This document shows positions 1 through 34,300 of a stretch of DNA of 64,000 bases, piece by piece. The stretch lies in assembly GCA_040285855.1 (NCBI GenBank), contig JAUFOQ010000004.1:1240001-1304000 (forward strand), written 5' to 3'. How positions within the stretch are numbered: the stretch's first letter is position 1; every line of letters starts with the position of its first letter. The translations under genes and the position numbers were made by a program. The DNA is from Eukaryota sp. GEM-RC1 (lineage: Eukaryota). Under the pieces are notes generated by a model, which saw only the letters and a program-made list of their open reading frames with translations, ran no database searches and was not told the DNA's origin.

Positions 1-3000
1 TCACGTGATTCTTGATGACGTGTTAGTTTCTGAGTTCCAATTTTCACCCAATGGTTCCATAACTTGTCATTCTGATGTTTCGATGAGAAATGCTGTCGGG
101 CTTTCTGATGTTTCTTTCACTTTCAACAATACATTGGCTCTCCTTGATTCAACTGTTAGGATTGCCCCTCTGTTTGTTCTCTTTGATTTTCAAACTATGT
201 CCGGGTTTGGTACTATTGATACTAATATTTTAAATTTTGGAAAAATTCGTCCTTCATCTACCTTCACTTTTAACGACAACCTTTCTCTTGCTCCTTCTTC
301 AATCATCTCTCTTCAAATCAGTAACGACAGTTCTTCTACTCATTTAATTGTTGGTTCAACTGCTTATTTAGATGGAATACTAGAAATTGAATTTGACACA
401 AAGTCTGACTCAACCAGCTATAAATATACTCTGATAGAGTCTGATCAAATTAATGGAAGATTTAGAAGCATAATTAATCCTTGTGCTTCACTTATAACCA
501 CCTTTTATTCAAAGTCTTCTCTAATTGTCTCTGTAAATGATTTTGTAGTCGACTTACAACAAGGTTCTTACGTTTCACCTAGTGGTGTTGATGACTCTTG
601 TTGTGGTACTTTTGACAGTCCTTGTGCGTCTTTTAAAGGAGTTTTAGAAAGAATGGGAAGAAAAGGGAAGGTTTATTTCCATAGTGGTTACTATTTCTTC
701 AATCAAGGTTTCGGCAAATTAATTGATGTTGATTGGGAAGTTATTGGTCTCGGTGACGTGATCATTGATGGAAGTGATGATACTTTACTTGATAATGTTT
801 CGTCTTCTTTGACATTCCATAATTTAATTATCTACGGTAAAAATGTTGTTCTTGAGGTTTCTAATTCATCAATCAATTTTGATTTCGTGAGTGTTCTTTC
901 CATCTCTAATGATAGCCTGTTTTTGATTGAAAATTCCTCTTTTACTACAACAAACTCTCTGTTTGACATTGAATCTTTTCGTCTATTTGAATGTCTCAAA
1001 TCTTCAATTTTCGTTGACAATTCTTTTTTTTCCGGATCATTGTCTGACTCGTTAATCTCGTTGTCATCATCATCAATGATTGTTGACAATACAATTTTAA
1101 ACAACTTGAATGTTAGTAATTTGATTGTTTCTTCCACATCATCTATTAAAGTTAATCATTCCTCCATATCGCACGTAACTGCTAACACGGTATTTCTATT
1201 AGATCAGTCTGATATTGTCGTGAATATTTTAAGTATTGCATTTTTTTTTATAGTAGCTCCTCAACTTTTTCTCTAAACACTGTCGAAGTTGACCAATCAA
1301 TTTCTACTGTGTGGTTCAGTTTAGTCAATTGTAAATTTCACTTACAGAATTTGAATTTCTCAAATACTCACGGTGATGCTTTCAGTGTCGAAAATTCGAC
1401 AGCCTCCTCTTTATCTATGGTTTTGGTTGTTAATTCCAATCTATCCCACTTTCTCAACGTCTTAAATTCAGGATTGTCCATCAACTATTAATAATTATAC
1501 TCATGATGAAATTTCTGTGTATATTCCGTACCTTTGTGATATCACTTCTGTTACTTCTGATATTTATTTAGTTGTTGGGAACCAAATTAGTAACTCCTTT
1601 CAATTAAATTTTGCTCCTCCACAAGTTAGTTATCAGCCAGTACCGCTGTCTCCTTCTGGGGAATTAATAGTATTAACAGGACCTTATTTCTCAAAAATGT
1701 ATCATTGTTTTCAAAATTCATCTCTTGAATTGTCTGTTCATACTGCTTCATACGAAATTATTGATGAAGATGAATTGCAAATTTCAACAGGTGACTTGTA
1801 TGGAATTACTGAATTTGCAATTTCAGTAGAATTTTTCCTTCAATTCATTCGCCTAATTTCAATACCTGTCACTTCATTTGTTGCTAACAATACTGACTAT
1901 GTTTGTTTTGTCGGCGTTCCGTGTTCAATTACAATTTATAGTTTTCTGGACGACTTTTCATTTGTTAATACTTTTATTGGGCTAAATTCTCCGAACTCTC
2001 TTCATATTTCAAATTACCAAGTATCACCATCTTTTGCTGAAGTTACATTTACTTCTTTTATTTCTCGAGTTCCAACTGAATTACGTATTTGTATTAATTC
2101 TGCGTGTTACTCTATTTTCAATCTTCCTTTTATTGTCTCTCCCTCCTATATCTATCCCAAAAATATTCAATGGTTTGATAGGCCAGTTACTCACAGCCTG
2201 TCTATCGAAATAGAAGGAATTGATTTCTATGATGTTTCAATTATTCAAAGTACTTTCTCATTCAGTAATTCTGCTTTTCAATTAATTACAGTTGATGAGT
2301 CTACGGTTTACTTCGATGTAGAGTTTACTAGAACAGGGAACTTCACCCTACAGAGTCTGTCTTTTGGACATTTAAGTGATCATCTTTCTGTGGAGATTGC
2401 TAATTTTGTTCTTTTTCCACCAAAACTGTATTTTAATTCTGTTGTTGAGTGTTATCTGCTTGAATCTATCAATGATCTCTTTATCTCTTATGGAAGTAAT
2501 ACCTTCCCTCTTCACCAAGGAGTAAATATTTTAAATATTGAAAGTGCTAGTTCTTGGATTACTTTATCTAGTCTGTCAGAATCAGTCAATATTTGTTCTA
2601 TTTCTTCTTTTCCTAATGAAAACATTCCTTCAGTAATAGAAATCAATCTTTTTCAAACAATTCAAATTTAAATAACTGATCCCAATTATTTGTATTCAGT
2701 AGAGTGTTCTGATAATTGTGAATTGAGTACTTCAACTGATAATTCATATCACATTGAAATTATCTTTGTTGGATTAGATGAAGGAAACATTGATATTTCC
2801 TTCGTTGTTTGGTATTTCCAATCAAATTTCAATTTTGTCCATCATGTTTCGGTTCACCAACCTCCAGTACTGGAATTGTTGACCTCCTCTGTGATTTCTC
2901 TTTCCAATCCTCAAGCTATCATGATCTCTTTTAGTAGTGACTTCTTTCCAGATTCCATTTTCTTGGTTAATGATCTTATTTTAAATGCTACTGAAGTTAA

Positions 3001-5807
3001 TGACGTGTCGAGTTCTAATTTTGAATTAACTTACTTGTTTAATATCTCGTCATTGCACTTTTCAAAAGGACAAAGCTATCACCACTGGTCTTGGAAACAG
3101 TCTGGATTTAGCTTACAACACGTTGGTGTTATTGTTGTTTTCGATATTGAGGCTTTGTCTACAGATTTTGTAAGTGTTTTTGAACACCGTACAATTTCAT
3201 TAAATATTGTAGGTAATTTATACTCCGATTTAACTTGTTCTATTGACTCTCAACAATTCACAGGAATTACTTCTAACAATTCTTTGTTCTGTGAAGATGT
3301 CATTATTCCAACATATCAAGAGTTTGTTGATCTAGAACTTTCTTTTGATGGGGTACTCATCAACTCAGTTGAAATTCAAGGAGAAGCATTTCTCGAAGAT
3401 GTCTGTTTTGTTTCATTTGTCGAACATCCTAGGATTAATTTTACTAACACTTTTACGAATAACTTAATGTTTGATGGTATCAGGTGTTGTAATGTTGACG
3501 TGTCTTTTTGTTCCGAATTTATCTCGCAATTTGACTTGATCAATGCAATGTTTGATACTTCTTTTGATATATTTCAAATTGTGATTACTACAAACACTAG
3601 TTGTCACGAATCCTATTATTACCTTCCTTTTGAACTGATTGCTAAAAATCAAACGCTTTCCCCTGCATATTCTTGTAAACAAGTTCCCAGTGGTTTTGCT
3701 TTTGCTTCAATGTGTACTATTGATCTGGTAATTCCACGAACAACTGAAATTCTTTTAGTTGCTCTTGAAAATCTGTTTATATTGGAATTAGAAATTTATG
3801 GGCATGTATCAGATTCTTGTTTTAAACCCTTTTCTTTTGGACGTGGTATTACTGCTCTTGGGGAAGTGATTGATGAAGATGTATATCTGGGGTTTGAAAC
3901 TGCATTGTTTAACTCAACGGTACAGTTTGAATCGTTTATTTCTCAGAAAGAAATGTTTTGGTCCACTTCAACTGTTCAATTTTCTACTGGTTTCTCCTCT
4001 CCAAATTGTTTCTACTCATTTACACCTTTTCTTGTGACTCTGTCTGCTTCTGATCCGACTTCTTTGGTTTTCAGTCAAACAATTGTTGAAGTCAATTCAA
4101 ATTATTTAAGTATTTCAATTCCCATGGTTTGCGTCGATAATGTTGGATTTTTTGTTGATTGCAATGGCTCTATTGACATTATCGCCTCTACTTTTAAATT
4201 CAATTCTGTCGTTTTCTTTTCAGATAATGTAATCTTCTTCTTTAATGAATTACCTCAATTACAGGAACATCGAGTTGATTACGAATTCAATTCCAGACTT
4301 CTTAATTGGAATGGCACGTTAGTTCAAAACTGTGCAGAATATTTAACTGTCGATCAATTGAACGTTTCCTATTGTGGTCATCAATATTATGGAGACCAAT
4401 CATGTACTCTTTTGAACATTACCTCAAAGTTTGTAATTCAGGAACAGTTCTACAATCTTACTAGCGAAGTTCTTCTTTCTGATATTACTCTAGTTACTGA
4501 CATTGAAGCTGGTATTAATATTCTAGATGACCGTTTGCTGGAGTTAGTCACGTCTCCACTCCAATCAATGACGATTACACTCTCCTATTTTTCTCATACT
4601 GCGACTATTGATCTAGTTTCAAATGATTGTCACTTTCCTAAATTGAATTCTGGACATGGATGTTTGTGTCCAAAAGGAATGGAATTTAATTATCTTGGTG
4701 AATGTGTGGAATGTTTTCTAAATTATTACTCAAATTCAGAATTCAATTCAGAGTGTAGATCTTGTCCTTTTCCTAGAATTACTCTTCAAAAAGGTTCTAG
4801 TGATCTTGACCATTGTGTTTGTCCTTTAAACACTCTAGATTCTATAGATTCTTGTTTACCTTGTCCTCATTTAGCTGAATGTGGATATGGAAATTTGACT
4901 GGAATTGAACCTGGTTTTAGATTAAATACTGATACTTGGGAACTAGATGAATGTGTGTTTTGGTATAGTTGTCATGAAAATTCTTGCAGATCACGTCATG
5001 CTTATGGAGATTTGTGTCAATATTGTACTGAAGATGCTGTTTTCAGCAAGATTTACTGTTTTAGTAATGAAAATACTTGGTTAAAAGTATTATCATTTAT
5101 TTGTTTCGTTTCTATTTTATTTGTTGCTGATAGGCTACCTGTTCAACTTTCTCTTGTTGATTCAAAGTTCAAGTATATTGAACTGGCAGCGTCATCACTT
5201 TCCACATTTGGTCAAAGGAGATTATTAGAACAGCTTTCGAACTACTTTAATATTCTTAATATCTTCTTTTTGTTTTGCCTCCGATTTTCTTCCGCAGGGT
5301 GTCTATTTGGGGTATTGCTATTGAATTTATATCTTCTATATTTCATTTTGATTCGTCACGAATATTGATTGTTTTTGTTCTGGTCTCACTGTGTGGACTT
5401 TCAAAAGTTGTATTATCACAATTTTTTAAAAGTTCTAATTTCAATGTGAGACATAGTGCTTTCTTACTGGGAGCGGTTCTTTTCTCTATCAATTTTCTGT
5501 TTGGTGCATCACTTTTTTTTCTTAATCATGAAGGGCCATCATTTTGGCAAATTCTATTCCTGAGTTTTCACTTGAGTTTTTTAACTTATGTGTTGGTAGT
5601 ACAACGTCATTCTCCTTATTTCTTATCACTGGTATGTTATTTTGTCGTCATTTTTGCTTCATTATTTGAGAGTTCAATTTATTCTATAATTCAAAATCTC
5701 ATAGTAGTTATACTTATCAGTTTCTCCACTACTACTATTGAGGTAATTCTTTTGGAATTTCTCTTCTTTTTAGTGTGTCGTATACTGTTAGTTTCTTGAA
5801 ATTGTAG
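1..5807 (+). pseudogene. Giant surface-protein paralog A (5' part outside window): CCGTFDSPC region, TIG-like and stalk type 1, Cys-rich block, TM type 1; damaged
   Basis: ORFs 5-1276, 1309-1491, 1517-2671, 2690-5368 and 5275-5799 are collinear with copies B and C. Out-of-frame ~1.3 kb deletion at 1486/1487, a small deletion near 1235, and in-frame TAA at 2669-2671 where C has GAA. The true stop is probably TAG 5805-5807 (…FLKL*), as in B, after restoring one T near 5750. Confidence 0.85.
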
Positions 5808-6843: not shown

Positions 6844-9800
6844 ATGTTCTTGACCGTTCTCCTTCTATTCTTTTGCTGTTGGGCACATCCATCTGTTTAT
6901 CGCTGGAGTGCCACAGCTGGGTCTTTGGTTCGACAGTGACAATTGGGAAACTGCTACAGTCCCTTCATCGTCTTCTTATGTCATCATTCCTCCTCAAACT
7001 GTTTCAAGTAGGGTAGTTATTGCGTCAAAAGTCGATATAACCTCTCTCACAATTTCCTCTAATGTTGTGCTTCTTTTCACGAACAACTCCACACTCACAG
7101 TTTCTGAACAGTTTTCTATCATCAATGGATGTACCTTGAGTTCTGATCATACTTCTCCTCTCTCATTTTCTTCTGTAAAATCTCTTGAATTGGATTCTGT
7201 GGACCTTGTTACTTTCTCTTCTCACAAACTCATAGTCACTGGTCTCTTTGACTGGAAACGTGGTTCAATTGATCTACATGGGTTCAGTGAACTTGTTCTC
7301 GTCAATTCTACTTCCGCTTCCCATTTTACAAGTCATTCTCCACTAAGTTCTGATCTTCTTCATGTCTGGGGATTTAATCCCGAAGGTCATCTTGGAGGTG
7401 GCTTGCAAGAATCTTCTGATGGTATATCTCCTGAATCTTATACTTTACCTGATTCTATTAGACAAGCTTCTCTTGGAAGAATCCATTCTATGATACTTTT
7501 GATTAATGGTGACGTTTACACTGCTGGAAGTAATACTTTTGGAGAACTTGGATTCAATGGTGGCGGAAGAAATATTCATGGTAAAATTGATTTATCGCAC
7601 ATTATTCAAATTATTTCATCATCTGAATCAAGTTATGCGTTAAGTGTGTCAGGATCTGTCTATTCTTGGGGACGTAACAGGAATGGCCAGTTAGGTATAG
7701 GAGATCGACTAATCAGACATACCCCCACTTTAATTCCAAATTTAAGTAACATTAAACAAATTGCTGGTAGGTATCTAACAGTTTTTGCTTTAACTAGAAA
7801 TGATGAAGTTTATGGGTGGGGTGCTGGGGCCAACAATGTTTTATGTAGTGATAGTACTAGTAATGTTCTTTCACCGTTGCTAATTGAATCTTTACAAAAT
7901 ATTAAATTTGTTGCTGCTGGCCTCAGTTCCTTCTTTGTTAAATCTAATGGATCGACTCTTACTTGTGGTTTAAGATTAGGTGAGACTGGATTCTATTCAA
8001 CTCCAACTCCATTTGCTAAGGATATTGAGTTTACGTTTATTGATACTATATATCTTCACGCTCTTGGCATTGATGTTAACCAGAAGCTATGGAGTTGGGG
8101 TTCGAATAGTCTTGGACAATTAGGAACTGGTGGGAACGCGGCTTCTGCAAGTCCGGTTCAAGTAACAAACATCGGGAAAGTCATCACGTCAGCTGCAGGT
8201 TGGGGACATTCTATTGCTGTTGACGTCAGCAATGACGTGTGGTCTTGGGGTTATCCAGAGGAGGTGTTGGGTAGGAGTTTTCCACCAAATTTGAATGAAT
8301 CAAATCCTGGCTTGATTCCTGGTTTATCTCCTATTATTTCCGGAATTAGTGCATATCATGGGAGCAATTTCGCATATTCTTCAGTTTCGGTTGTTGTGAA
8401 TTCAGTGGGGTCGTCTTCAAGTAACTCTAAAATGATTTTAAAAGGAAATAATGACATCTTGGGAAAAGTTAATGATAATGGCCTTCAACAGTTTAATCTT
8501 ATTTCTGTTCCAGTTTTTCTTTCTGGTTCATTGAATTTGACAAGTGATTCTTTCTATTTTCTGTCTGAATTCAATTTAAGTGGGCTTTTGTCTATTAATT
8601 CTCTAGTGGAAACTTATTTCACTTCATTTTTCTTAGGAGCTTCTGAATGTTCAACTCTTTCTTTAGAGTCTAATGTTTTTGTTGAAACTTTGTATTGTTA
8701 TTGTGGAACAATTGAAGGTGTTGGAGAATTGACAGTAAACACGTTGGTGTTTTGTTCTTCTAATCCTGAACTAAAATTAAGTAGAATTTCTATTGGTAAA
8801 ATGATGACTTCTGAATTAAATGTTGAATTTAATCTGACTACTGATTTATTAATTTCTATCAATGGAATACTTAAAATATCACAGGTAACTTTCTACTCTG
8901 ATTCGGATGTAACTGTTACTTTTGGTGGAAATTTAAAGTTGGTCAACACTTCATTGACTCTTCACATCGATTCTCGGCTAAATTCAAATATTCAATTTGA
9001 CCAAAATTCTAAAATTCAAATCACTTCCTCTTCTTCTAGTCTTGGATCAGTATATCCATTGTTTCTTTATTATGACTGGTCAGAAAGTCCTTCTGGAGAT
9101 GATCTTTCTGGTAATAATAATAATGTACTAGAAGTTTCTGGTGCTCAATGGAATCCTGATGGTTATTACCAATTTGAAATTGCCACTAACGTTATCAAAG
9201 TTCCAAATATTTCAGGTAAATTCGGCTGGGCATCAGCTACAATTTCATTTTCAATATGGTTTGACTCTGATTCTACCAATAGATTTGGATTTATTACTAA
9301 TCCTTCTGGTTGTGGATTAGTCCTTGGAGATCATTTATCTTTTGGTGATAAAACTATGAAAGATCTGTCAATTCCAAGAAATCAATGGATCTCCTTGATT
9401 GTTACTACAGATCATAATGGAGCTCAAATGTATGTTAATGGAGCTCTGATTGCTTCTGTCAACGGCAAGTATGGCTGTGATGAGTTTTCTGATTTCTTCC
9501 CCCTGGGATCTGTCTATTACAAGAGTGGGAATGACTGGGTAGGCTCTTCTGATCAGTTTTTTAAGGGTAGAATTAGAAGAGTTGCTGTTTTTACAGAGAA
9601 ACTTTCTGAAAGTGAAGTTGAAGCGCTGTCTAAAACTCAATTAGTATCGTTAACTCAAATATTTGGTGACGGAAGTATGGTTATTGAAAACTCTTCATTT
9701 CGCGTAAACTCATTGTCGACATTAAGTTTAAACAGTCTTTATTCCTATAATTCTTCTTTATTTATTGTTCCATCTGCTTTCTTTGGAGTCGTCAATACTG

Positions 9801-12800
9801 TTGCCAAAGAAGATTCAACCATTGAAATCCATGGCCGTTTCCTTTCTTCTGACTTCTTCCTTCCCAATCTTGAGTTAGAGAGTTCTTCATTTATTTCAAC
9901 TACTTTAGAGCTTCATTTTGATGTTATTTCTTTTTTAAATAGTGACTTTAGTTGTGACTGTTATTTAGAGGCTTTAGTTGTCTATTGGTTTGATGGTATC
10001 TTGACTCTAAGTGAAGCCAAAGTAAACGTCATCAATCTTTATGGTAACGAAAAGGTTTTACTAATAGAATCATTGACAATTACAGAGGAGGTGTTTTTTA
10101 ATAATTCTCTTACATTACATTCAAATAATTCTCAATTAATTCTTGATTCAGTAATTGTCAAGTGTACTGCGTTATCCTCTCTTTTCTTGTCTTGTTCTTC
10201 TGACTGTACTTCTGCTGAATTAAAATTTTCCAATGCTTTTGTATTGTCTGAATATTGTTCATTTGTTTCTAACTTTGATATCTCAAACTGCGCACTGTTC
10301 AGTCTGTTTTCATATTCCTTTTCCAAACAGAGTCTGTATTTACTTCTCACAATGTCCTTCAAATTGACGAACACGCAGAATTCTCTGTTGTTTCGTCCGA
10401 GTTTTCAATTGAAAGTGTCATTGATTCGTCTGACCCGTCCTTATTTATGTACTACAACTGGGCATACTCACTGAATAAAATAGACTTATCAGGAAATCAT
10501 GGTCTCAGTGCAATCATAATTCATGGGCCAGTATGGGAAAGTGATGACAATGGTGGTTATTTGAAAATCACACCTGGTAATACATTACTTATCCCAAACC
10601 TTCCTGGTGCCACAGGTTGGACGGGAACAACAATATCCTTATGGATGAACATTCAAGCAGGGGGTTTGGGACTGGATTTTGGTGGGTCATGTCGATTGAC
10701 TATTGAGCCTAAACGAGTTTGTTGGGGCACATTGTGTTCAACTGTACATTTTCCAACAACTTGGTTCCATTTGGCAATTAAATTTAGTCCATTCGATTCT
10801 TTAAGAACCATGCCTCGGGTTTTTATCGATGGAAGCTATAGAAATTCTATTGGTGCAGGGCATGGATATCATTGTACCAACCCTCCATCTCATTTCTCAC
10901 TATCAAGGATTCATCCTTCGGGTTCACAATTTCGGGGTATGATTCGTGCAGTTCAAGTGTTTCGCAGAATTTTATCAGCTCAGGAGATAGCCAACTTAGA
11001 ACTTAGCTTTCCAGCAGGGGTTTGGGGTCAAGGAAAGTTCTCTTTTATCAACTCTCATTGTGTTCTTTCTTCCATGTACTTTGAAATCCGCTATATGTCA
11101 TTAAATTCGTCATTCTTTCAATCAGGAGCCGTTATGCTTAGGCATCTTGAAGAACTTGACCTTAGTTCTAATTCAGAGATTGTCTTTGTTCATAGTCACG
11201 ACTTTGACTTTGATTCTACTGGTCTTGTTGTCTTTTTAGACTCAAGCAAACTTCGTTATGAAGTAATTGATTCTGCAACCAAGGTTCTTATTGATTCAAT
11301 TTATCTAACAAATACTTCTTCAATTATTACTGATGCGTCGCTTGTTATAAGTACTTTTCATTGGTTTCAGGGTGCGTTGTTTTCCCCTGGTGTTACATCC
11401 TTACAAAGACTGTTTCTTTATGGTGATTCTAAAACATGGGTTGCGGATTCGTTGATTATTGAAAATGAATTGTATTTCAATAATTCTCTTTCTTTTTAAT
11501 TTCTCATCTCAAGTTAATTACTGTTTCAGTTACTTGTTTTCCTGGTTCAGATCTTGTTCTTAATTCATCACTTTTTAATGAACGTTTACTTGAAATCAAG
11601 AACCATTTTCATTTAACTTCTAATTGTTCTCTCACTTCATTGTTACCAGTTCAAAGTACTGGAATTATTACTGTTTCAAATGACTCGATAATGACTCTTA
11701 AGAAGGCATGGGAACATAATCAAGGGGAGTTTCTGGGATTGGGAGAATTACGTTTACAACAATCTAAAGTGTGGCTTTTGGATGTTGTCTTTGGCATCAG
11801 ATCTATTACTTCTTCATCATCTATTTTAAATTTTGATAATTTAAATATTCAGGATACTGTTCTATTTGAAATTAGTGATTATTCGTCGCTCACTTTGTCG
11901 TCTACTCTAGAAGTTTCAACTGGTCACTTGACAATAGCTCTTATCGACAGTGAGCTCTTCTTTAATCAATCAGTGATCTCATCATCGTCAACAATTTGTT
12001 TAGCTGCATTCCATAGTTTTGTTCAATTGATGATGCCGCAATTTCATTTTGATTCTGTTAATTTCAATTTATCCATACTGGAATTGGTCAATAGTAGTGA
12101 CATTGTTGTTGAATCATTGTCATGTATTGATTGTTTTGTCCTTGGAACTCATCTGCTCTACGTTAACCATAGTTCATACATCAATTCGGGAAAGTTCTCT
12201 CCCTTTATACTTGTTTCTGAATATGCACAATGTTCATTCATTACTGGTCAAGTCTATTTGACTCACTCATTTGATTTCTACAGTCACGTGATTCTTGATG
12301 ACGTGTCAGTTTCAGAATTCCTGGTTTCTAGTGGATCCATCATTTGTCATTCTGATGTTTTGATGAGAAATACTGTGAGTATTTCCAATGTTTCGTTCGT
12401 TTTCAAAGACACATTGTCTCTTTTTGATACAATTTTTCTTTTTGATCCGCTCCTTGTTCTCTTTGATTTTCAAACAATGAAAGGATTTGGCACCATTGAT
12501 ACTAATATAGTTAATTCTGGAATTATTCGTCCATCACCTTATTTCAAATTTAACGACAACTTGTCTCTTTCTACTTCTTCCATCATCTGTATTCAAATCA
12601 ATAACACTACTTCTTATGATCATTTAATTGTCGATTTAACTTCTTTTTTAGATGGAATACTAGAACTAGAATTTGAGACAAATTATGATTCAACTGGGGA
12701 TAATTATACTCTCATAGAATCTGGTCTAATTAATGGTAAATTTAGTAATATAGTCAATCCTTGTGCTTCACTTATAACCCCGTTTTATTCAGAAACTTCT

Positions 12801-15800
12801 CTAATTGTCTCTGTAAATGATTATGTAGTGGACTTAAATCAAATTTCTTACATTTCTCCTTCTGGTATTGATGATCCTTGTTGTGGTACTTTTGACAGTC
12901 CTTGTGCTTCTTTTAGAGGAGTTTTAGAAAGAATGGGAAGAAAAGGAAAGGTTTATTTCCACGAGGGAACTTACACTTTTGATCAAGGATTGGGAATAGT
13001 ACGTGATGTTGATTGGGAAGTGATTGGTCTCGGTGACGTGATTATTGATGGAAGTGATGAGACTTTATTTGATATTGTTTCGTCTTCTTTGACATTCCAA
13101 AATTTAATTATATACGGTAATAATGTTCTTTTTGAGGTTTTTAATTCATCAATCAATTTTGATTTCGTGAGTGTTCTTTCCGTCTCTAATGATAGCATGT
13201 TTTTGATTGAAAATTCCTCTTTAACTACAACAAACTGTCTGTTTGACATTGAATCTTTTCGTCTATTTGAATGTCTTAAATCGTTAGTTTTTGTTGACAA
13301 TTCTATTTTTTCTGGATCATTATCTGACTCGTTAATCTCAATGTCATCATCGTCAATGATTGCTGACAATACTATTTTTCGTTACTTGAATGTTATTAAT
13401 TTGGTTGTTTCTTCTTCATCTTCTATTGAGTTCAGTCATTCATTAATAATGGAGATTACTGCTAACATGATATTTCAATTGGATCAATCAGATATTGTCT
13501 TAACGTCTTTAAATTGTTCTTCAGTCTTTTCAAAAGCCTTTGTTTACAGTAGCTTCGGAGCTTTTGTTCTAAACGCTGTCGAAGTTGACACATCAATTTC
13601 TACTATGTGGTTCAGTTTAATCAATTGTACATTTCACTTACAGAATTTGAATTTCTCAAGTTCTGATGGTGATGCTTTCAGTGTCGTAAATTCGACAGAC
13701 TCCTCTTTATCTATGGTTTTGGTTGTTAATTCCAATCTATCCCACTTTCTTAACGTCTTGAATTCAGGACTTTCCATCAACTCTCTTTCTCTTTTCAACT
13801 GCACAGGAAGTATACTAGAACATTCTGTCAGTAGCTCAATTACTACTCAGAATTTGACCATTACTGATTCATTATTTGATACTTTGTTTTTATTATCAGA
13901 TTCGTCCTTGAGTTTATCTTTGGGTAACATTGGGTCATCGTCGTTTAATAATAGTACACTTGTGCTTTATAACTCTACCCTGGAAATGGAAGAAGTTACC
14001 ATTGATTTGGTTTCAACTTCTATTTTCTTAGAGTCAATAGATAGTAATAGTACTTTTGAGAATTTTGTAATACGTAATTATGAGTTTCTCCAGTTTTTGG
14101 TTCTAACTCGATCCAAAACTAATTTTTTCTCTCTGTTTTTGGATAGTTGTCAACTTTATGAATTAAATCTTTTAGTGTATGATATTACTTTAACTGAGTC
14201 CTATCTAACACTTAAAAAATCTAATATTTCTGGATGTGCTTCTAATCAAGACTTTAAGTTGAGTTTATATTCAGAAAAGTCTTACCTATTCTTTCTTAAT
14301 TTTGACCAAGAATTCTTCTTTTCTTCATTAGTTTTAGACCATTCTAATATCACTATAATTTCATATTTCCCAGTAATTTCTAAGTCTGTTTCAATTGATG
14401 AAGAGTCTATTATACTGGGTAATGCTCCATTACTTGATCTTTCCAGATTAATTTCAAATGTTTCAATTTTTCCTTCACAACACTGCTGTAACACGTCTTT
14501 CTGACAAGTTTCTCTGAATTTTAATAACATCGAATATCTGTCAGAGTTACTGGAACTCACAGTCCCTAATAATGATGAATTCTCCCACAACTTTGTATTG
14601 AATTCTCTTGACTTCTTTTCAATGATGTTATTTCTTTCAATCCAACGAACTATTCTATTTGTTTTAATTTTACTATTTCTAGAATATTTTCGTTCCAACA
14701 TTTATTTATCCCCATTTGTCCTATTGAGTTTGTTAGTCTAGAACCTCCAACTAGAGGTGGTTTTGTACCACTTTTGCTTTTAATCTTGGGTTAGATCCTA
14801 TTGTTATTCATCATTCCACTGCTTTGATCAATCAAAGTCTTGAATATTCTTCAAATTATCATGAGTATTTGAACTTCTTCTTTTTGAAGGTCATGGTTGT
14901 CATGAAATGGTTCTTTCTAGATTAACTGATGCAGAAATTTTATATTTTAAATATTGTTTCAAACGTGCTCATATTCAAACTAGTTTTCCCAATCCTTTCC
15001 CTTTAACAGGACTATTGACTATTACAGCAACAGATTTCTCCACAAATTTTGAATTTTTTGCTATTCTTTCAAGCTTTTCTCAAGCGGAACTTCGTAATTA
15101 TACACACGAAGAAATTATTTTACACATTCCCTATATTTGTAATATCACTTCCACTGAATTTGACGTTTATTTAATAATCGGAAATCAGTCTAGTAATTCT
15201 TATCAACTCAATTTTGGTCCGCCAAGAGTTACTTATCAACCTATTCCTCTTTCTCCTTCTGGTGAAACTATTCTTTTACGTGATTCAAATTTTTCAAAAA
15301 TGTTGAACTGTTACCATAACTCATCTATTGAATTTTCAGTTAGTAGTGCTACTTTTGAAATAGTGCTTGATGATGAAGTAAATGTTAGAACTGGTTAATT
15401 GTATGGATCAACTGCGTTTGTAATCGATATCCAGTATTTTAAGGATTTCAATTTTTAATTTCTATTCCGGTCACGTCATTTGTTGCTAGAGATACCCCAT
15501 TTGTTTGTTTTGTCGGTATTGCTTGTGAAATTGAAGTTTATAGTTATCAGGAAGAATTCTCGTTTCTTGAAACTTATATTGAACCCAGTGTTCCTGATAG
15601 TATATATTTTCTTTATTTTGGTTCAAATGTTTCTTCTGCTTTTGTGACATTTATTTCTTATGTTCCTGGATTTCCACAAGATTTGAAAATTTGTGCACAT
15701 TTTGGATGTTTTTCTATTTTTAACTTACCTTTTGTTGTTGAACCGGCTTATTTATCTCCAAATCATTTCCAATGGTTAAATGAGCCTATAACTACCGAAG

Positions 15801-18800
15801 TTCTGGTTGAAGTTGAGGGCATTTCATTTTACAGTTTCTCTGTAATCCAAAACAGTTTTTATTTTGACAATTGTCCATCTTTGTTATCTTATCTAAGTGA
15901 ATCTTACATGATCTTTGATATGGTGATTTCTCAAATAGGAAATTGTTTATTAGTTGGATCTTCTTTTTAAATATTGTCCCATTCAACATGTCCATTGAAA
16001 TCAAGAATTTTATTATTTTTCCACCAGAGGTTAGATTTAATTCACAAATTCAATTTGTACTTAGTGAAGATATTTCTCATCTCTTCATAACACACGGAAG
16101 TCAAACTATTTCCGTACGGAATGGTGCCAATATTTTAAATTTGAAGGATTCTGACACCTTCATTACTCTTCACAGATACTCTCAGTCAATGAATGTCAGT
16201 TTTGTTACTTCTTTCATTTACTCATTAATTCCTGATGTGATTGAGGTAAATCACCCTCAATCCATTTTTATTGATCAAAACACCTTATTGTATGATTTAG
16301 ATGTCAGTTGTTCTGGTAACTGTGATTTGGCTTTGGATCATCTTCCGAACTCCACTATCAAGGTTTCTTTTACTGGTATTGAACCTGGATCAATTGTACT
16401 GGAGTTTTACGTCAACTATTATAATTCAAATTTCTACTTCCGAATCCCAATATCAGTAGAAAGACCTCCTGTATTTGAACTTTTAAGTCCAAATGTTGTG
16501 TTTACCTCTGTAAATTCTTTAGTTTTCATTCACAGTTACTCACATTTTGATTTGGAATCCTCTTTTCATTTGATGATTCTATTATTGAACCTACTAATGC
16601 TGAGCTCCTCTCCAGTTCTGATTCCTTCTTTGTTTACAGATTTGAACTGAATCTTACTTCCATGTCAGTTCTTGAAGGGGAATATGTCCAAGACCTATGT
16701 TGGAGTCAGATAGGGTTCAGAAGACAATTGGTTACTGAAATTAAAATATTTAATTTGGATTTCAGTAGTAACGATCAGGTAAGTGTTTTTGAACATCGTG
16801 ATATTTCTGTTCACTTCCGAGGAAATCTTACTTCAAAAGTGACTTGTTCTATTGATGGTCAAATCTTCGTTGGAAAAGTTGTTGATAATGTGTTGGTTTG
16901 CAAGAGTGTCCGGCTTCCAACATTTCAACAACACGTGCGTGTTGACGTTTACTATGATCAATTTCTTTTGAATTCTTTTGAACTTTCTGGTGAGGTTTTT
17001 TTGGAGGAGATATGCTTTCAAACATTTCATCATCATCCTTTGGTTAATTCTTCTGAAATTATTTCAAATCAGAACACAAATTTAATATTCGACGGCTCAA
17101 GATGCTGTAGTGTTGATGTTTCCTATTGTTCAGAATTAATGTTAAAAAAAGAATTAGTTACATTCGATTTTCCGTCCCTATTTGACATTCATCACGTTAT
17201 TATCACGTCTAATTCTAGTTGCGAAGATATTGATTTTGGACTTCCTTTTGAACTGATCGCCAATGATCACGCTATTTCACCTTCTATTATTTGTAAGCAA
17301 ATTCCTAGCGGATATTCCTTCGCATCAATGTGTGAGATAGATGTAATTTTTCCAAATACTTCTGAGATTACTCTAGTAGCTCTAGAAGATGTTTACTTAC
17401 TAGAAGTAGAGTTTTATGGATACAAATCTAATTCTTGTTTTAAACCTTTTCATGGGGAAAAGGTGTTACTTCACTAGGAGAAGTAATTGATGAAGTTGTT
17501 TATTTGAGATTTAATAATCAATCGTTTGATTCAATTTCAGAATTCAAACAATTCGTAATTGATAAGTCAACGTTCTGGTCATCGTCATTTCTTACTTTTC
17601 CCACTGAGTTGTATTCTCCTTATTGTTATTATTCTACTGTTAGTTATCCAACTGTTTTGACTGCTTCATCAGCATCATCTTTTGTCTTTCTAGCTGATGT
17701 AGTAGAACTAAATCCACAATTTTTAAACATTTCTATCCCAATTATTTGTGTTGATGCTTTAAATTTCATTGTTCACTGTAGTGATATGTTTACAGTAACG
17801 ACGTCAACATTTGAATTCTTGAATTTTGAATTTTTAAACAATTCATTGATTTTCTCTTTCCTGAATTTGATCAAACTAGGAGAACATTCATTATCAATGA
17901 CTTATGGGCAAAGTCAATTTTACTGGAATGGGATTATTGTTCAAAATTTCAATGAAATATTTGAAATTAGTGATTTGAGAACTAGTAAGTGTGATCATCA
18001 TTTTACTTTAGTTAATACGTGTACATCATTGGACTTTGCGTCCACATTAATAACTCAAAATCCTTTTACTAATCAATCGAAAATAATTTTGATGTCAGAT
18101 TTAAGTATAGATCTTGAGTTTGATACTTCAGTCCTGCATGTTGTTAATGGATCAACTTTGGAGATTATTGGACCTCCACATCAATCAATGACGATTACAC
18201 TTTCCTATCTGTCCCAATCTACTACTATCGATTTAGTTTCAAATGATTGTCACTTTCCTAAATTGAATTCTCGACATGGATGTTTATGTCCAAAAGGAAT
18301 GGAATTTAATTCTCTTGGTGAGTGTGTGGAATGTTCTTTAAATTATTACTCACATTTTGAATTTAATTCAGAGTGTAGATCTTGTCCTTTTCCTAGAATT
18401 ACTCTTCAAAAAGGTTCTAGTGATCTTGACCATTGTGTTTGTCCTTTAAACACTCTAGATTCTATAGACTCTTGTTTACCTTGTCCTCATTTAGCTGAAT
18501 GTGGATACGGAAATTTGACTGCAATTGAACCTGGTTTTAGATTAAATACTGATACTTGGGAACTAGATGAGTGTAATTTTTGGTTCAATTGTCATCAAAA
18601 TTCTTGCAGATCACGTCATGCTTATGGAGATTTGTGTCAATATTGTACTGAAGATGCTGTATTTAGCAAGATTTATTGTTTTGGTATGGAAAATACTTGG
18701 TTAAAAGTACTATCATTTCTTTGTTTTACTTCTATTTTGTTTGTTGCTGATAGATTAGTTATTCGACTTTCTATTGTTGAATCAAAGTTCAAGTATATTC

Positions 18801-19429
18801 GACTGGCAGCGTCATCACTTTCTACATTTGGTCAAAAAAGATTATTGGAACAATTTTCAAATTACTTTAATATTCTTAATATCATCTTTTTTGTTTTGCC
18901 TCCGATTTTCTTTCGTAGGGCGTCTATTTGGGTGATTTTCATTGAATTTTTATCTTCTATATTTCATTTTGATTCGTCACGAATGTTGTTTGTTGTTTTT
19001 ATGGTCTCAATGTGTGGACTTTCGAAAATCGTATTATCACGATTTTTTAAAATTTGTAATTTCAATGTGAGACATAGTGCTTTCTTACTAGGAGCGGTAC
19101 TTTTCTCTATCAATTTTCTGTTTGGTACATCACTTTTTTTTCTTAATCATGAAGGGCCATCATTTTGGCAAACTGTATTTCTGAGTTTTCACTTGAGTTT
19201 TGTAATTTATGTGTTGATAGTACAACGTCATTCTCCTTATTTTCTATCACTAATATGCTACTTTGTAATCCTTTTTGCTTCTTTATTTGAGAGTTTAATG
19301 TATTTTATAATTCAAAACCTTATGTTAGTTTTGCTTATCAGTTTCTCCACTACTACTATTGAGGTAATTCTTTATGGAATTTCTTTACTTTTCAGTATGC
19401 CGTTTACTTTTAGTTTCTTGAAATTGTAG
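6844..19429 (+). pseudogene. Giant surface-protein paralog B, full length (~4,190 codons): signal peptide, RCC1 propeller (~7360-8380), LamG (~9060-9640 and ~10443-11030), beta-solenoid, TIG-like, stalk type 2, Cys-rich, TM type 1
   Basis: ATG 6844 gives MFLTVLLLFFCCWAHP (signal-like). RCC1 motifs VYSWGRNRNGQLGIG and LWSWGSNSLGQLGTG; LamG motifs WISLIVTTD…MYVNG…FKGRIRRVAVF. About ten homopolymer frameshifts plus two in-frame stops: TGA 14502-14504 (TGT in C) and TAA 15396-15398 (TCA in D). Confidence 0.85.
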
Positions 19430-28384: not shown

Positions 28385-31300
28385 CTACAATTTCAAAAAA
28401 CTAAAAGTATACGACACACTAAAAAGTAGAGAAACTGCAAAAGTATTACATCAACAGTAGTTGTGGAGAAACTGATAAGTATAACTATGATGAAATTTTG
28501 AATTATAAAATAGAATAGGCTCTCAAATGATGAAGCAAAAATGGTGACAAAATAGCATACTAGTGATAAGAAATAAGGAGAATGACGTTGTACTATCAAC
28601 ACAAAAATTAAAAAACTCAAGTGAAAACTCAGAAATACAATTTGCCAAAATGACGGCCCTTCATGATTAAGGAAAGAAAGTACTGTGCCAAACAGAAAAT
28701 TGATAGAGAAAAGTACCGCTCCAAGTAAAAAAGCGCTATGTTTCACATTGAAATTGTAATTTTTAAAAAATCTTGATAAAACGACTTTCGAAAGTACAGA
28801 CAGTGAAATCAGCACAATAACAAACAACATTCTTGACGAATCAAAATGAAATATAGAAGATATAAATTCAATAGCAATCACCCAAATAGACACCCTACGG
28901 AAAAAAATCGGAGGCAAAACAAAAAAGACGACATTTAGAATATTAAAGTAGTTCGAAAGCTGTTCTAATAATCTCTTTTGACCAAATGTAGAAAGAGCCG
29001 ACGCTGCCAGTCGAATATACTTAAACTTTGATTCAACAAGAGATAGTTGAATAATCAATCTATCAGCAACAAATAGAATCAAAATCAAGCAAATTAATAA
29101 TATCACCTTTAACCAAATATTTTCCTTACCAAAACAATAAATCCTAGAGGAAAAAGCTTCTTCAGTACAATATTGACACAAATCTCCATAAGCATGACGT
29201 GATCTGCAAGAATTTTCATGACAACTATACCAAAACACACATTCATCTAGTTCCCAAGTATCAGTATTTAATCTAAAACCAGGTTCAATTCCAGTCAAAT
29301 TTCCATATCCACATTCAGCTAAATGAGGACAAGGTAAACAAGAATCTATAGAATCTAGAGTGTTTAAAGGACAAACACAATGGTCAAGATCACTAGAGCC
29401 TTTTTGAAGAGTTATTCTTGGAAAAGAACAAGAACGACATTCTGAATTGAATTCTGAATTTGAAAAATAATTTAGAAAACATTCCACACATTCACCAAGA
29501 TAATTAAATTCCATTCCCTTTGGACACAAACATCCATGTCCAGAATTCAATTTAGGAAAGTGACAATCATTTGAAACTAGATCAATAGTCGCAGTATGAG
29601 ATAAATAGGATAGTGTAATCGTCATTGATTGGAGTGGAGACGTGACTAACTCCAGCAAACGGCCATCTAGAATATTAATACCAGCGTCAATGTCAATAAC
29701 TAGAGTAATATCAGAAAGAAGAACTTCGCTAGTAAGATTGTAGAACTGTTCCTGAATTACAAACTTTGAGGTAATGTTCAAAAGAGTACATGATTGGTCT
29801 CCATAATATTGATGACCACAATAGGAAACATTCAATTGATCGACATTTAAAAATTCTGCAAAGTTTTGAACTATCGTTCCATTCCAATTTAGAAGCCGGG
29901 AATTGAATTCGTAATCAACTCGATGTTCCTGTAATTGAGGTAATTCATTAAAGAAGAAGATTACATTATTGGAAAGGAAAACGACATAATTGAACTGAAA
30001 AGTAGAGGAAATAATCGAAATAGAACCATTACAGTCAACACAAAATCCAATATTATCGACACATTTTATGGGAATTGAAATATTTAAATAATTTGAATTG
30101 ACTTCAACAATTGTTTGACTGAAAACCAAAGAAGTTGGATCAGAAGCAGACAGAGTCACAAGAAAAGGTGTAAATGAATAGAAACAATTTGGAGAAACGA
30201 AACCAGTAGAAAATTGAACAGTTGAAGTGGACCAAAACATTTCTTTCTGAGAAATAAACGATTCAAACTGTACCGTTGAGTTGAATAATGAAGTTTCAAA
30301 CCCCAGATATACATCTTCATCAATCACTTCCCCAAGAGCAGTAAAACCACGTCCAAAAGAAAAGGGTTTAAAACAAGAATCTGATACATGCCCATAAATT
30401 TCTAATTCCAATATATACAGATTTTCAAGAGCAATTAAAATAATTCCAGTGGTTCGTGGAATGATGATGTCAATAGTACACATTGAAGCAAAAGCAAAAC
30501 CACTGGGAATTTGTTCACAAGAATATGCAGAAGACAGCGTTTGATTGTTAGCAATCAGTTCAAATGGAAGGTAATAATAGGATTCGTGACAACTAGTGTT
30601 TGTTGTAATCACAATTTGAAATATATCAAAAGAAGCATCAAACATTGCATTGATCGAGTCAAATTGTGAGATAAATTCGGAACAAAAAGACACGTCAACA
30701 TTACAACACCTGATACCATCAAACATTAAGTTATTCGTAAAAGTGTTAGTAAAATTAATCCTAGGATGCTCGCCAAATGAAGCAAAACAGACATCTTTGA
30801 GAAATGCTTCACCTTGAATTTCAACTGAGTTGATGAGTACCCCATCAAAAAAAAAGTTCTAGTTCAACAAACTCTAGATAAGTTGGAATAATGACATCGT
30901 CACAGAACAAAGAATTGTTAGAAGTAATTCCTGTGAATTTTTGAGAGTCAATAGAACAAGTTAAATCGGAGTATAAATTACCTTCAATATTGAAAGAAAT
31001 TGTACGGTGTTCAAAAACACTTACAAAATCTGTAGACGAAGCCTCAATATCGAAAACAACAATAACACCAACGTGTTGTAAGCTAAATCCAGACTGTTTC
31101 CAAGACCAGTGGTGATAGCTTTGTCCTTTTGAAAAGTGCAATGACGAGATATTAAACACGTAAGTTAATTGAAAATTAGAACTCGACACGTCATTAACTT
31201 CAGTAGGATTTAAAATAAGATCATTAACCAAGAAAACGGAATCTGGAAAGAAGTTACCACTAAAAGAGATCATGATAGCTTGAGGATTGGAAATAGAAAT

Positions 31301-34300
31301 CACAGAGGAGCTCAACAATTCGAGTACTGGAGGTTGGTAAACCGAAACATGATGTACAAAATTGAAATTTGATTGGAAATACCAAACAACGAAGGAAATA
31401 TCAATATTTCCTTCATCCAATCCAACAAAGATAATTTCAATGTGATATGAATTATCAGAAGAAGTACTCAATTGACAATTATCAGAACATTCCACTGAAT
31501 ACAAATAATTGGGATCAGTTATTTCAATTTGAATTGTCTGGAACAAATTGATTTCCACTACTGATGGTATGTTTTCATTAGGAAAAGAAGAAATAGAACT
31601 AATATTGACTGATTCTGACAGACTAGATAAAGTAATCCAAAGACTAGCACTTTCAATATTTAAAATATTTACTCCTTGGTGAAGAGGGAAGGTGTTACTT
31701 CCAGTAGAGATATAGAGATCATTGACAAACTCAAGCAGATAACAATCAACAACAGAATTATAATAAACTTTGGGTGGAAAAACAACAAAATTAGCAATCT
31801 CTACAGAAAGATGTTCACTTAAATGACCAAAAGACAGACTCTGTAGGGTGAAGTTCCCTGTTCTAGTAAACTCAACATCGAAGTAAACCGTAGACTCATC
31901 AACTTTAATTAATTGAGAAGCAGAATTACTGAATGAGAAAGTACTTTGGATAATTGAAAAGTCATACAAATCAATTCCTTCTATTTCGATAGACAAGCTG
32001 TGAGTAACTGGACTATCAAACCATTGAATATAGTTGGGATAGATATAGGAGGGAGAGACAATAAAAGGAAGATTGAAAATAGAGTAACACGCAGAATTAA
32101 TACAAATACGTAATTCAGTTGGAACTCGAGAAATAAAAGAAGTAAATGTAACTTCGGCAAAAGATGGTGATACTTGGTAATTAGAAATATGAAGAGAGTT
32201 CGGAGAATTTAGCCCAATAAAAGTATTAACAAATGAAAAGTCGTCCAGAAAACTATAAATTGTAATTGAACACGGAACGCCGACAAAACAAACATAGTCA
32301 GTATTGTTAGCAACAAATGAAGTGACAGGTATTGAAATTAGGCGAATGAATTGAAGGAAAAATTCTACTGAAATTGCAAATTCAGTAATTCCATACAAGT
32401 CACCTGTTGAAATTTGCAATTCATCTTCATCAATAATTTCGTATGAAGCAGTATGAACAGACAATTCAAGAGATGAATTTTGAAAACAATGATACATTTT
32501 TGAGAAATAAGGTCCTGTTAATACTATTAATTCCCCAGACGGTGAAAGTGGTGGTGCTGGGAGATAACTAACTTGTGGAGGTGCAAAATTAAGTTGAAGA
32601 GAATTACTAGTTTGGTTCCCAACAATTAAATATACTTCAAAAGTATTAGAAGTGATATCACAAATATAGGGAACATAAAAAGAAATTTCATCATGAGTGT
32701 AATTATTAATCACAACTTGAGAGAAACTGAAAGACAGCGAAAAGTATTCAAAAGAGGTGGAAAAATCAGAACCATATATTGAAAAATGACCATGTAAATG
32801 GAAAGGATCGGTTGACAGGGACGAAATGACAGGTTTCTTGAAACAGTAATTGAAGGAAATTATTGAAGAATCTGTAGATCGAGAAAGAATCATTTCATGA
32901 CAACCATGACCTGCAAAAAGGATAAATCCAAATATTCATCATTATTTGAAGAATATTCAAGACTTTGATTGATTGAAGCTGTTGAATGATGAATAATAAT
33001 AGGATCTAACCCAAGATTAAAAGCAAACAGTGGTACAAATCCACCTCTAGTTGGAGGTTCTAGACTAACAAAATAAATAGGACAAACAGGAATGAATAAG
33101 TTGTGGAATGAAAATATTCTAGAAATAGTAAAATTAAAACAAATTGAATTATTCGTTGGATTGAAAGAAATAACATCATTTAAAAAGAAGTCAAGAGAAT
33201 TCAATACAAAGTTGTGGGAGAATTCATCATTATTAGGGACTGAGAGTTCCAGTAACTCTGACAGATATTCGATGTTATTAAAATTCAGAGAAACTTGACA
33301 GAAAGACGTGTTGCAGCAGTGTTGCGAAGGAAAAATTGAAATATTTGAAATAATTCTCGAAAGATCCAGTAATAAAGCATCACCAAGTATAACAGAATCT
33401 TCATCAATAAAAACAGACTTTGAAATTACTGGGAAATCTGACATTATATTGATATTAGAATGATCTAAAACCAATGAAGAAAAGAAGAATTCCTGATCAA
33501 AATTAAGAAAGTATAGGTAAGACTTTTCTGAATATAAACTCAACTTAAAGTCTTGGTTAGAAACACATCCAGAAAGATTAGAATTTTCCAGTGTTAGATA
33601 CGAGTCAATTAAAATAATATCATATACTAAACTATCTAAATCAGAAAGTTGACAACGATCCATTAACAGAGAGCGAAAATGAGTTTTGGACAGAGTTAGA
33701 ACCAAAACTGGAGAAACTCATAATTACGTATAACAATATTCTCAAAAGTACTATTACTTTCTATAGACTCTAGGAAAATAGAAGTTGAAACCATATCAAT
33801 GGTAACCTCTTCCACCTCCAGGGTAGAGTTATAAAGCACAAGTGTACTATTATTAAACGACGATAAACCAATGTTACCCAAAGATAAACTCAATGACGAA
33901 TCTGATAATAAAAACAAGGTATCAAATATTGAATCAGTAATGGCCAAATTCTGAGTAGTAATTGAACTATTAACAGAAGATTCTAGTATACTTCCTGTGC
34001 AGTTGAAAAGAGAAAGAGAGTTGATGGACAATTCTGAATTCAAGATGTTAAGAAAGAAGGACAGGTTCGAATTCTCGACCAAAACCATAGATAAAGAGGA
34101 ATCCGTCGAATTTAAGACACTGAAAACATCACCGTGAGTCTTTGAGAAATTCAAATTTTGCATGTGTAATTTACAATTGATTAAACTAAACCACACAGTA
34201 GAAATTGATTGATCAACTTCGACAGTGTTTAGAGAAATAGTTGAGAACGTACTATAAACAAAGTCTTTTGAAAAGACTGAAAACATAATTAAATTATTCA

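What the first reader, a model, noticed from the sequence alone, without database searches (positions are those of the whole stretch)
7330..8390. RCC1 propeller is a blade-level mosaic with hypervariable loops in an extracellular context
In the first blades B and C are nearly identical (SSDLLHVWGFN…GKIDLSHIIQI) and D differs. In the middle blades C and D share TTF-x-L-x-R-x-GQVFGWGS and FFIKEDGSTLTCGR, while B differs. Frameworks such as HALGIDVNQKLWSWG and AVDVxNDVW are fixed, while the segments after WG vary in sequence and length in B, C, D and E. RCC1 repeats are normally intracellular in eukaryotes; secreted relatives (BLIP-II-like) are mostly bacterial. Inference: a variable ligand-binding head.
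Basis: partly seen in the sequence, partly recalled or inferred. Interest (0 to 1): 0.7.

Follow-up and report, generated by a model that had tools for sequence, protein, structure and literature searches.

The report
Variable-faced propeller heads on protist receptors
A single-celled eukaryote has a family of very large predicted surface proteins whose propeller-shaped head varies mainly on one face and has likely swapped long DNA stretches between gene copies, so these are likely ligand-binding receptors with differing targets, though no excess of protein-changing mutations was found.

Summary
7346-8386 is a seven-bladed RCC1 propeller (pLDDT 96) near the N-terminus of a ~12.6-kb gene for a predicted multi-pass surface protein. 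The window holds five paralogues; at least 21 propeller-bearing relatives exist, all named Eukaryota sp. GEM-RC1, a skoliomonad. Variation is face-specific: 38 of 110 loop positions on one face are hypervariable, against 5 of 63 on the other. That face matches UVR8's binding face and lies opposite the stalk attachment. One B/C exchange tract is real: 7209-7611, 96% against 68% identity, p=0.0002. It starts in the stalk, so it is not a blade unit. The C=D motifs are mostly family consensus. Positive selection was not found: omega is 0.25 on the variable face and about 0.5 at the most variable sites, and M2a does not beat M1a. The same stalk slot holds a LamG or a third domain in other members. 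Extracellular RCC1-like heads are known in eukaryotes (CRINKLY4). All copies are frameshifted, mostly at homopolymers; E is a true pseudogene. Verdict: a lineage-specific family with a variable binding head; ligand unknown, diversifying selection unproven.

The parts
6845..19429 (+). Copy B: ~12.6-kb gene for a predicted giant surface protein (signal-like N-terminus, beta-rich stalk, RCC1 propeller, two LamG domains, Cys-rich region, several membrane helices), broken by frameshifts
   Evidence: ORFs; Pfam; hydropathy and at least 14 frame breaks by greedy tiling
6845..6925 (+). Hydrophobic signal-peptide-like start; B lacks 2 nt at about 6919 relative to C and D, which puts it out of frame with the propeller
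   Evidence: alignment; C reads through in frame from its ATG; signal peptide judged by eye
6926..7345 (+). N-terminal all-beta stalk unit ending in the conserved HKL..FDWKRGSIDL motif that precedes the insertion slot
   Evidence: model m84b6d1346aa7, pLDDT about 60-86 over most of it; weak Amnionless match below cut-off in C and D; motif table
7346..8386 (+). Seven-bladed RCC1-type beta-propeller; blade 1 is closed by two N-terminal and two C-terminal strands, so both ends leave on the B-C-turn face
   Evidence: AlphaFold2 pLDDT 95.9, pTM 0.93, strand list; Foldseek TM 0.86 to UVR8, 0.89 to HERC2 RLD2
7209..7611 (+). Tract shared by B and C at 96% identity (C about 39888-39486), likely gene conversion; covers the stalk end and blades 1(C,D)-2
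   Evidence: p=0.0002; protein-level global p=0.001
7478..8362 (+). Hypervariable A-B hairpin tips (propeller residues 45-46, 93-94, 143-144, 193, 235-237, 286-287, 337-339) and, between them, the residues after each WG; rich in aromatic residues and Arg
   Evidence: column entropies; class test (A-B tips 35% Y/W/F/H and 13% R, against 4.5% and 1.3% on the other face)
9245..9619 (+). LamG / concanavalin-like domain 1 (Pfam-matched part)
   Evidence: PF13385, E 1.3e-11
10618..10992 (+). LamG / concanavalin-like domain 2 (Pfam-matched part; whole-protein score 27.2, just under the 27.6 cut-off)
18311..18436 (+). Cys-rich ephrin-receptor-like repeat
   Evidence: PF07699, E 3.9e-6
18707..19375 (+). 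C-terminal membrane region; five hydrophobic segments pass the hydropathy threshold
28393..40252 (-). Copy C; propeller at 39751-38702, in one frame with its signal-like start
45845..59024 (+). Copy D; propeller at about 46331-47350; 2-nt gap at 46301 upstream of it; blade-7 loop shortened in frame, lacking the LGR that 18 other domains keep
60550..64000 (+). Copy E, pseudogene: stalk joined at 60935/60936 to blade 7 (about 960 nt lost), with a TGA at 60940-60942 in place of a Gly invariant in 19 of 19 domains
1..5799 (+). Copy A, 3-prime part only; 93% identical to C over 4.35 kb

Best explanation
The region is a seven-bladed RCC1 propeller in a family of giant predicted surface proteins of a free-living protist; it varies mainly on one face, and likely serves as an exchangeable ligand-binding head with a different target in each paralogue. 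Shown: the fold model, the face-biased variation, the aromatic/Arg-rich hairpin tips, tracts of near-identity between some paralogues, and other domains in the same stalk slot. Inferred: the head points away from the stalk, because both chain ends leave on the opposite face. Inferred: paralogues diverged long ago, kept the framework under purifying selection, and changed the binding face by substitution under weak constraint or episodic selection; occasional ectopic gene conversion, starting in the conserved stalk, recombines 5-prime and 3-prime blades. Most likely ligand, inferred from lifestyle only: surface molecules of bacterial prey (about 0.35), ahead of kin/self or virus recognition.
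For: Fold. Face bias by topology-defined classes: 38 of 110 against 5 of 63 hypervariable columns, Fisher p=9e-5; excluding Gly/Pro columns, mean entropy 1.94 against 1.24, p=1e-5. In the window alone B, C and D all differ at 27 of 74 face-1, 6 of 51 face-2 and 17 of 124 strand positions. Among 7 LamG-bearing members, columns with 5 or more residue types: face 1 34 of 110, later stalk 6 of 185, LamG1 5 of 185. Face-1 changes are more radical: mean BLOSUM62 -1.0 (A-B) and -0.7 (C-D) against -0.1. Omega is higher on face 1 than face 2 (0.25 against 0.11, p=2e-4). The variable tips align with UVR8 W285/R286 and W337/R338, its dimer-interface residues (PMC4501546, passages); BLIP-II binds through apical turns and loops (10.1101/2024.08.26.609822, passage). 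Tracts: 3 of 171 domain pairs have globally significant tracts, all over 5-prime blades. Slot: between the same flanking motifs sit an RCC1 propeller (375-377 aa), a LamG (219 aa) or a 157-aa unassigned domain. Extracellular context: hydrophobic start, LamG, Cys-rich repeat, membrane segments. The organism named for the relatives is a bacterivore (PMC11603281, passages).
Against: No omega above 1: face 1 0.25; sites called hypervariable from 15 independent domains 0.46-0.54, significantly below 1 (p 0.0006-0.015); M2a gains nothing over M1a under two codon-frequency models. Only three DNA sequences were available. In four close pairs, differences were not enriched on face 1 as a whole (16 of 160 against 28 of 329, p=0.61); they were at crown sites (11 of 47 against 33 of 442, p=0.001), but I chose those sites after seeing the alignment. 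In blade 4 the A-B loop is no more variable than the B-C turn. The x positions of the RCC1 repeat are free in most family members (established knowledge), so part of the bias is plain tolerance. B, C and D all have frame breaks, so no intact full-length product is shown. No ligand and no expression data.
Confidence: 0.62

Rival explanations
1. Relaxed constraint only: the propeller is a structural or generally adhesive module whose exposed loops drift in an old, partly decaying multigene family, with incidental gene conversion.
For: All omega estimates are below 1; about 22% of codons fit a neutral class; mosaic identity spans the whole gene; E is a pseudogene, and D has lost a conserved motif in blade 7; blades 3-7 have high synonymous divergence (four-fold sites 93 of 202 against 81 of 426 in stalk plus LamG1), so much variation may simply be age.
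Against: Exposed B-C turns stay fixed (0 of 24 hypervariable) while A-B tips vary (13 of 21) and are rich in aromatic residues and Arg, which drift on a surface would not favour; the changes are chemically radical.
Confidence: 0.25
2. An actively diversified repertoire: broken copies act as a donor archive that feeds conversion tracts into expressed genes, as in trypanosome VSG or chicken immunoglobulin genes (recalled comparison).
For: Many clustered paralogues on at least 7 contigs; significant tracts in 3 pairs; propellers of B, C and D are open frames inside frameshifted genes; some frameshifts are shared by two copies.
Against: 12 of 23 isolated 1-nt gaps touch runs of 4 or more bases, against 13% background, as expected of residual long-read errors, and the propeller has fewer such runs (1.9 against 4.5 per kb); recent duplicates A and C show purifying selection (NG86 omega 0.33-0.45); tracts are few, and the B/C tract has already aged (dS about 0.05-0.07); no expression site is known.
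Confidence: 0.1
3. The mosaic is an assembly chimera between paralogues.
For: Repeat-rich genome of a kind assembled from long reads (PMC11316075, section 6); many frame breaks.
Against: B and C differ at 16 of 403 nt inside the tract, with synonymous and non-synonymous changes, so the tract is not a copied sequence; similar tracts occur in other pairs.
Confidence: 0.03

Closest known systems
RCC1-like domains (UVR8, HERC1/2 RLD, RCC1, RPGR)
   Same: Seven four-stranded blades of about 50 aa; Z 42-46, rmsd 2.0-2.5 A over 325-344 residues; the variable tips align with UVR8's GWRHT interface residues.
   Different: These are intracellular single-copy proteins with a conserved binding face (established knowledge). 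Here the domain is inserted in a predicted surface protein, is multi-copy, and its binding face is the variable part.
CRINKLY4 / ACR4 receptor kinases of plants
   Same: Eukaryotic receptor with an extracellular RCC1-related seven-bladed propeller, a Cys-rich region and a poorly conserved putative ligand groove (PMC4617170 and 10.1101/2020.08.10.245050, passages); Z 21.
   Different: CR4 has ~39-aa disulfide-stabilised repeats, one membrane helix and a kinase. Here: ~50-aa repeats, two conserved Cys in the whole propeller, a long stalk, LamG domains, several membrane segments and no kinase seen.
BLIP-II (Streptomyces)
   Same: Secreted seven-bladed propeller that binds a protein through apical turns and loops (10.1101/2024.08.26.609822, passage); Z 28.5.
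   Different: Three-stranded blades, stand-alone inhibitor; not among the 34 PDB sequences matched at E<=0.001.
Variable surface multigene families of protists (VSG, var, Giardia VSP, Trichomonas BspA/Pmp; recalled, not tested)
   Same: Many paralogues, ectopic conversion, pseudogenes, variable distal domain.
   Different: Those are mostly parasite antigens under host immunity; the relatives here are named for a free-living bacterivore, and no omega above 1 or expression switching is shown.

Membership tests
RCC1-like domain | RCC1 repeat profile above curated cut-off | tested here: met
   PF00415 121.6 bits (cut-off 21.7), PF25390 169.9 bits (cut-off 150)
RCC1-like domain | Seven four-stranded blades of about 50 aa | tested here: met
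   WG spacing 44-52 aa; strand list of model; Z 46 to HERC2 RLD3
BLIP-II | Three-stranded blades | tested here: not met
   Model shows four strands per blade, strand D of blade 7 being short; BLIP-II aligns over 262 residues at Z 28.5, below four-stranded members
BLIP-II | Binds class A beta-lactamase | not testable with these tools
   needs a binding assay
CRINKLY4 receptors | C(X~10)CWG disulfide motif in every blade | tested here: not met
   Only two invariant Cys columns (residues 167, 207) in 19 domains
CRINKLY4 receptors | Single membrane helix followed by a kinase | tested here: not met
   Several hydrophobic segments at the C-terminus; the only Pfam match in the B tail ORF is the Cys-rich repeat
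Cell-surface multi-pass receptor/adhesin | Signal peptide, extracellular domains and membrane anchor in one polypeptide | tested here: inconclusive
   All parts are present in order, but B, C and D need at least 14, 7 and 11 frame changes; no signal-peptide predictor was run
Diversifying-selection receptor family | Variable sites clustered on one binding face | tested here: met
   (faces assigned by strand topology)
Diversifying-selection receptor family | dN/dS above 1 at those sites | tested here: not met
   omega 0.25-0.54; M2a equals M1a; three sequences only
Diversifying-selection receptor family | Segment exchange between paralogues | tested here: met
   B/C tract p=0.0002; 3 of 171 pairs significant; tree conflict marginal
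Antigenic-variation archive (VSG-like) | Silent donors and one expressed locus | not testable with these tools
   needs corrected sequence and transcripts

The most novel reading that the evidence does not exclude
A free-living protist has built an antibody-like receptor repertoire on the RCC1 propeller: a modular stalk displays interchangeable heads (propeller, LamG, a third domain), the propeller's aromatic-rich face is under episodic diversifying selection to track prey, kin or viruses, and gene conversion from intact and broken paralogues recombines half-propellers into new specificities.
Probability: 0.2. Interest if true: 0.85.

Novelty: new variant of a known kind. Interest (0 to 1): 0.5.

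Why it matters
How free-living phagotrophic protists recognise prey, kin or viruses is largely open. This family offers about 20 natural variants of one stable, small, confidently modelled binding scaffold with a defined variable face, so binding can be tested directly. It would add RCC1 propellers to the folds used for variable recognition at eukaryotic cell surfaces. Without selection or ligand data it remains an interesting lineage-specific expansion rather than a new recognition system.

Tried and rejected
C-D exchange in the middle blades: rejected, mostly shared ancestral states. Blade as unit of exchange: the B/C tract starts in the stalk; the three significant tracts end at residues 84, 89 and 126, two near the blade 2/3 junction, too few to judge. 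Positive selection: not found. Tree conflict: AU tests rejected each half's tree on the other half (p<0.001), but 1 of 20 random splits gave as much conflict, so I do not rely on it. 'Head resists homogenisation': blades 3-7 are synonymously older than the following stalk, but other stretches are as divergent (B-C 53-65% over B 14.9-18.0 kb). Bacterial origin: best outside matches are at most 38% identical and mostly unnamed; Atlas neighbours are mostly bacterial RCC1 clusters, which is no sign of transfer; blades 2-7 are only 22% alike on average, so no recent single-blade amplification; no tree with outside sequences was built. Stalk fold: not resolved, as the propeller filled both fold searches and the Atlas gave unnamed clusters. 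The 157-aa third head has no Pfam match above cut-off. No whole genome was held. No sequencing run was listed. No earlier scan finding. Two BLIP-II papers were not held. PMC12301720 was irrelevant (strain names). Literature searches (listings only) showed no paper on this family; in PMC11316075 'RCC1' occurs 0 times in the main text. Its supplements were not read and could bear on gene-family content.

Full report
CONTEXT. The window holds five paralogues of a 12-13 kb gene: A (tail, 1-5799), B (6845-19429), C (40252-28393, minus), D (45845-59024) and E (from 60550). Each reads, in order: hydrophobic start, beta-rich stalk, RCC1 repeats, LamG domains, more stalk, a Cys-rich ephrin-receptor-like repeat and several hydrophobic segments. 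The finding is B's RCC1 region, 7346-8386. A database protein identical to it is named 'Eukaryota sp. GEM-RC1'. Papers describe Skoliomonas sp. GEM-RC as a free-living anaerobic bacterivorous metamonad (PMC11603281, passages; PMC11316075, passages and section 6).

FAMILY. Two word-based searches and one profile search returned 21 proteins with this kind of propeller. Twenty carry the GEM-RC1 name and one is the window's own copy C; they lie on contigs of 7 different lengths. Outside matches reach at most 38% identity. Only the best 120, 120 and 150 rows were shown, and the last list is crowded by very long RCC1-repeat proteins, so absence in other eukaryotes is not shown. For statistics I used 19 domains from 16 proteins. 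I dropped P0127 (divergent, partial) and two redundant rows of P0003; four proteins found later were not added.

FOLD. AlphaFold2 gives a seven-bladed propeller, pLDDT 95.9, pTM 0.93. Closest solved structures are UVR8 and HERC2 RLD (TM 0.86-0.89). The wide search ranks HERC2 RLD3 Z 46, RCC1, RPGR and UVR8 Z 42, BLIP-II Z 28.5 and CR4 ectodomains Z 21. It is a canonical four-stranded RCC1 domain, not BLIP-II-type. Blade 1 is made of C-terminal strands A-B and N-terminal strands C-D, so the domain is joined to the stalk where that blade's B-C turn would be. By up-down sheet topology the A-B and C-D loops lie on the opposite face.

WHERE THE VARIATION LIES. With classes fixed from the model's strands, 51 of 347 columns have entropy of at least 2.5 bits: A-B loops 13 of 21, C-D loops 25 of 89, B-C turns 0 of 24, D-A loops 5 of 39, strands 8 of 168. 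Face 1 against face 2 is 38 of 110 against 5 of 63, p=9e-5. A-B tips are 35% Y/W/F/H and 13% Arg, against 4.5% and 1.3% on face 2. The bias holds in the window's three copies alone: 27 of 74 against 6 of 51. Face 1 exceeds the later stalk and LamG1 of the same genes, although the linker right after the propeller is also variable (8 of 38). The A-B loop is more variable than the B-C turn in five of six blades; blade 4 is the exception. B's tips at 236-237 and 286-287 align with UVR8 285-286 and 337-338, the GWRHT residues of its dimer interface (PMC4501546, passages). BLIP-II also binds through apical turns and loops. So the variable face is the face these folds use to bind partners.

MOSAIC. 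B and C share 387 of 403 nt in 7209-7611, against 68-69% on either side; p=0.0002 in 5000 permutations. The tract starts about 135 nt before the propeller and ends in strand A of blade 3. It has aged slightly (dS 0.05-0.07), which argues against an assembly copy. Across 171 domain pairs three have globally significant tracts (residues 1-89, 3-84 and 51-126; p 0.001-0.002); one of them is between two repeats of the same protein. A fourth candidate, P0121 sharing blade 5 with C (25 of 26 polymorphic columns) and its 5-prime blades with D, is not significant (p=0.23). Trees of blades 1-3 and 4-7 reject each other, but 1 of 20 random splits did as well. Identity is patchy along the whole gene. 'Conversion tracts over the 5-prime blades' fits better than 'blade-level mosaic'.

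SELECTION. Codon models on B, C and D, with separate branch lengths for the tract and gap-adjacent codons removed (310 codons), give omega 0.28 (A-B), 0.25 (C-D), 0.11 (face 2) and 0.07 (strands). Face 1 exceeds face 2 (p=2e-4), and every class is below 1. Sites called hypervariable from 15 independent domains give 0.46-0.54, still below 1; M2a does not improve on M1a. Blades 3-7 are near synonymous saturation (four-fold differences 0.39-0.51 per pair against 0.11-0.29 in stalk and LamG1), so short bursts of selection could be averaged away, and three sequences give low power. The stalk plus LamG1 has omega 0.3, no lower than face 1. In four close pairs, crown sites differ more often (11 of 47 against 33 of 442), but the crown set was chosen after seeing the data and two ranges were drawn wider than the significant tracts; face 1 as a whole shows no excess (16 of 160 against 28 of 329).

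A DISPLAY SLOT. Between the same upstream motif (HKL..F.W..G.IDL) and downstream motif (G.GKLSL..S), four units carry a propeller (375-377 aa), one a LamG (219 aa, P0243) and one a 157-aa domain with no Pfam match (P0004). P0006 has a second unit with the start of a LamG-like sequence at this slot. The propeller is thus one of several interchangeable inserts, one of them lectin-like, which supports a binding role.

ARE THE GENES INTACT? Greedy tiling needs at least 14, 7 and 11 frame changes in B, C and D, none inside the three propellers; short introns are not excluded. Of 23 isolated 1-nt gaps, 12 touch a run of four or more bases, against 13% expected. That fits residual long-read errors (genomes of this group were built from Nanopore reads with Illumina correction) and also fits slippage. 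Some lesions look real: E lost about 960 nt and has a stop in blade 7, and D lost part of its blade-7 loop. B's own start is 2 nt out of frame. Recent duplicates A and C show NG86 omega 0.33-0.45, so the family has mostly evolved as coding sequence.

COMPARISON AND VERDICT. An extracellular RCC1-like propeller in a eukaryotic receptor is known from CRINKLY4 (passages), whose defining Cys pattern and kinase are absent here. What appears new is a multi-copy family in one protist that carries the propeller as an interchangeable head with a variable binding face and recombines it between paralogues; my searches listed no paper on it. Interest 0.5.

Noticed in passing
P0004 residues ~155-300; P0243; P0006: The stalk slot that holds the propeller holds a LamG or an unassigned 157-aa domain in other units; by recalled resemblance the latter may be a carbohydrate-binding beta-sandwich, but Pfam gave no match above cut-off.
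   Followed up: partly
window 10094 and 13129 (B coordinates; C 36995/34671, D 49047/52726); 17444 (D 57048): The same 1-nt gap in a homopolymer occurs in two copies at once (C+D twice, B+D once); P0011 ends in the same off-frame tail as D. Systematic read error or inherited frameshift.
   Followed up: partly
window 9541-10250: Second stretch of high B/C identity (666 of 709 nt, 94%, against 83-84% to D), after LamG1; not tested separately.
   Followed up: partly
window 14900-18000 (B), 32870-29730 (C), 54530-57690 (D): Two deeply diverged types of the membrane-proximal stalk: B and D 70-86% alike, C (and its near-twin A) 53-65% to them.
   Followed up: no
window 10418-11200 and homologues: LamG2 is as divergent among B, C and D (54-72%) as the propeller; it may be a second variable head.
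   Followed up: no
window 21670-25700: Large membrane-protein gene with TmcB-type TPR repeats (PF25474, E 3e-20), broken near 24800.
   Followed up: no
window 42205-43722: Leucine-rich-repeat gene (LRR_6) with 84-nt internal repeats.
   Followed up: no
window 21267-21437 and 27245-27414: 171-nt inverted repeat, 94% identical, flanking the TmcB-like gene; possibly ends of a mobile element.
   Followed up: no
P0009: Gene model joins a RING/IBR N-terminus to a family propeller; may be a prediction artefact.
   Followed up: no
P0127, P0321: An older subfamily (P0127 39% identical to B) with the same stalk-plus-propeller layout, so the insertion predates the recent expansion.
   Followed up: no
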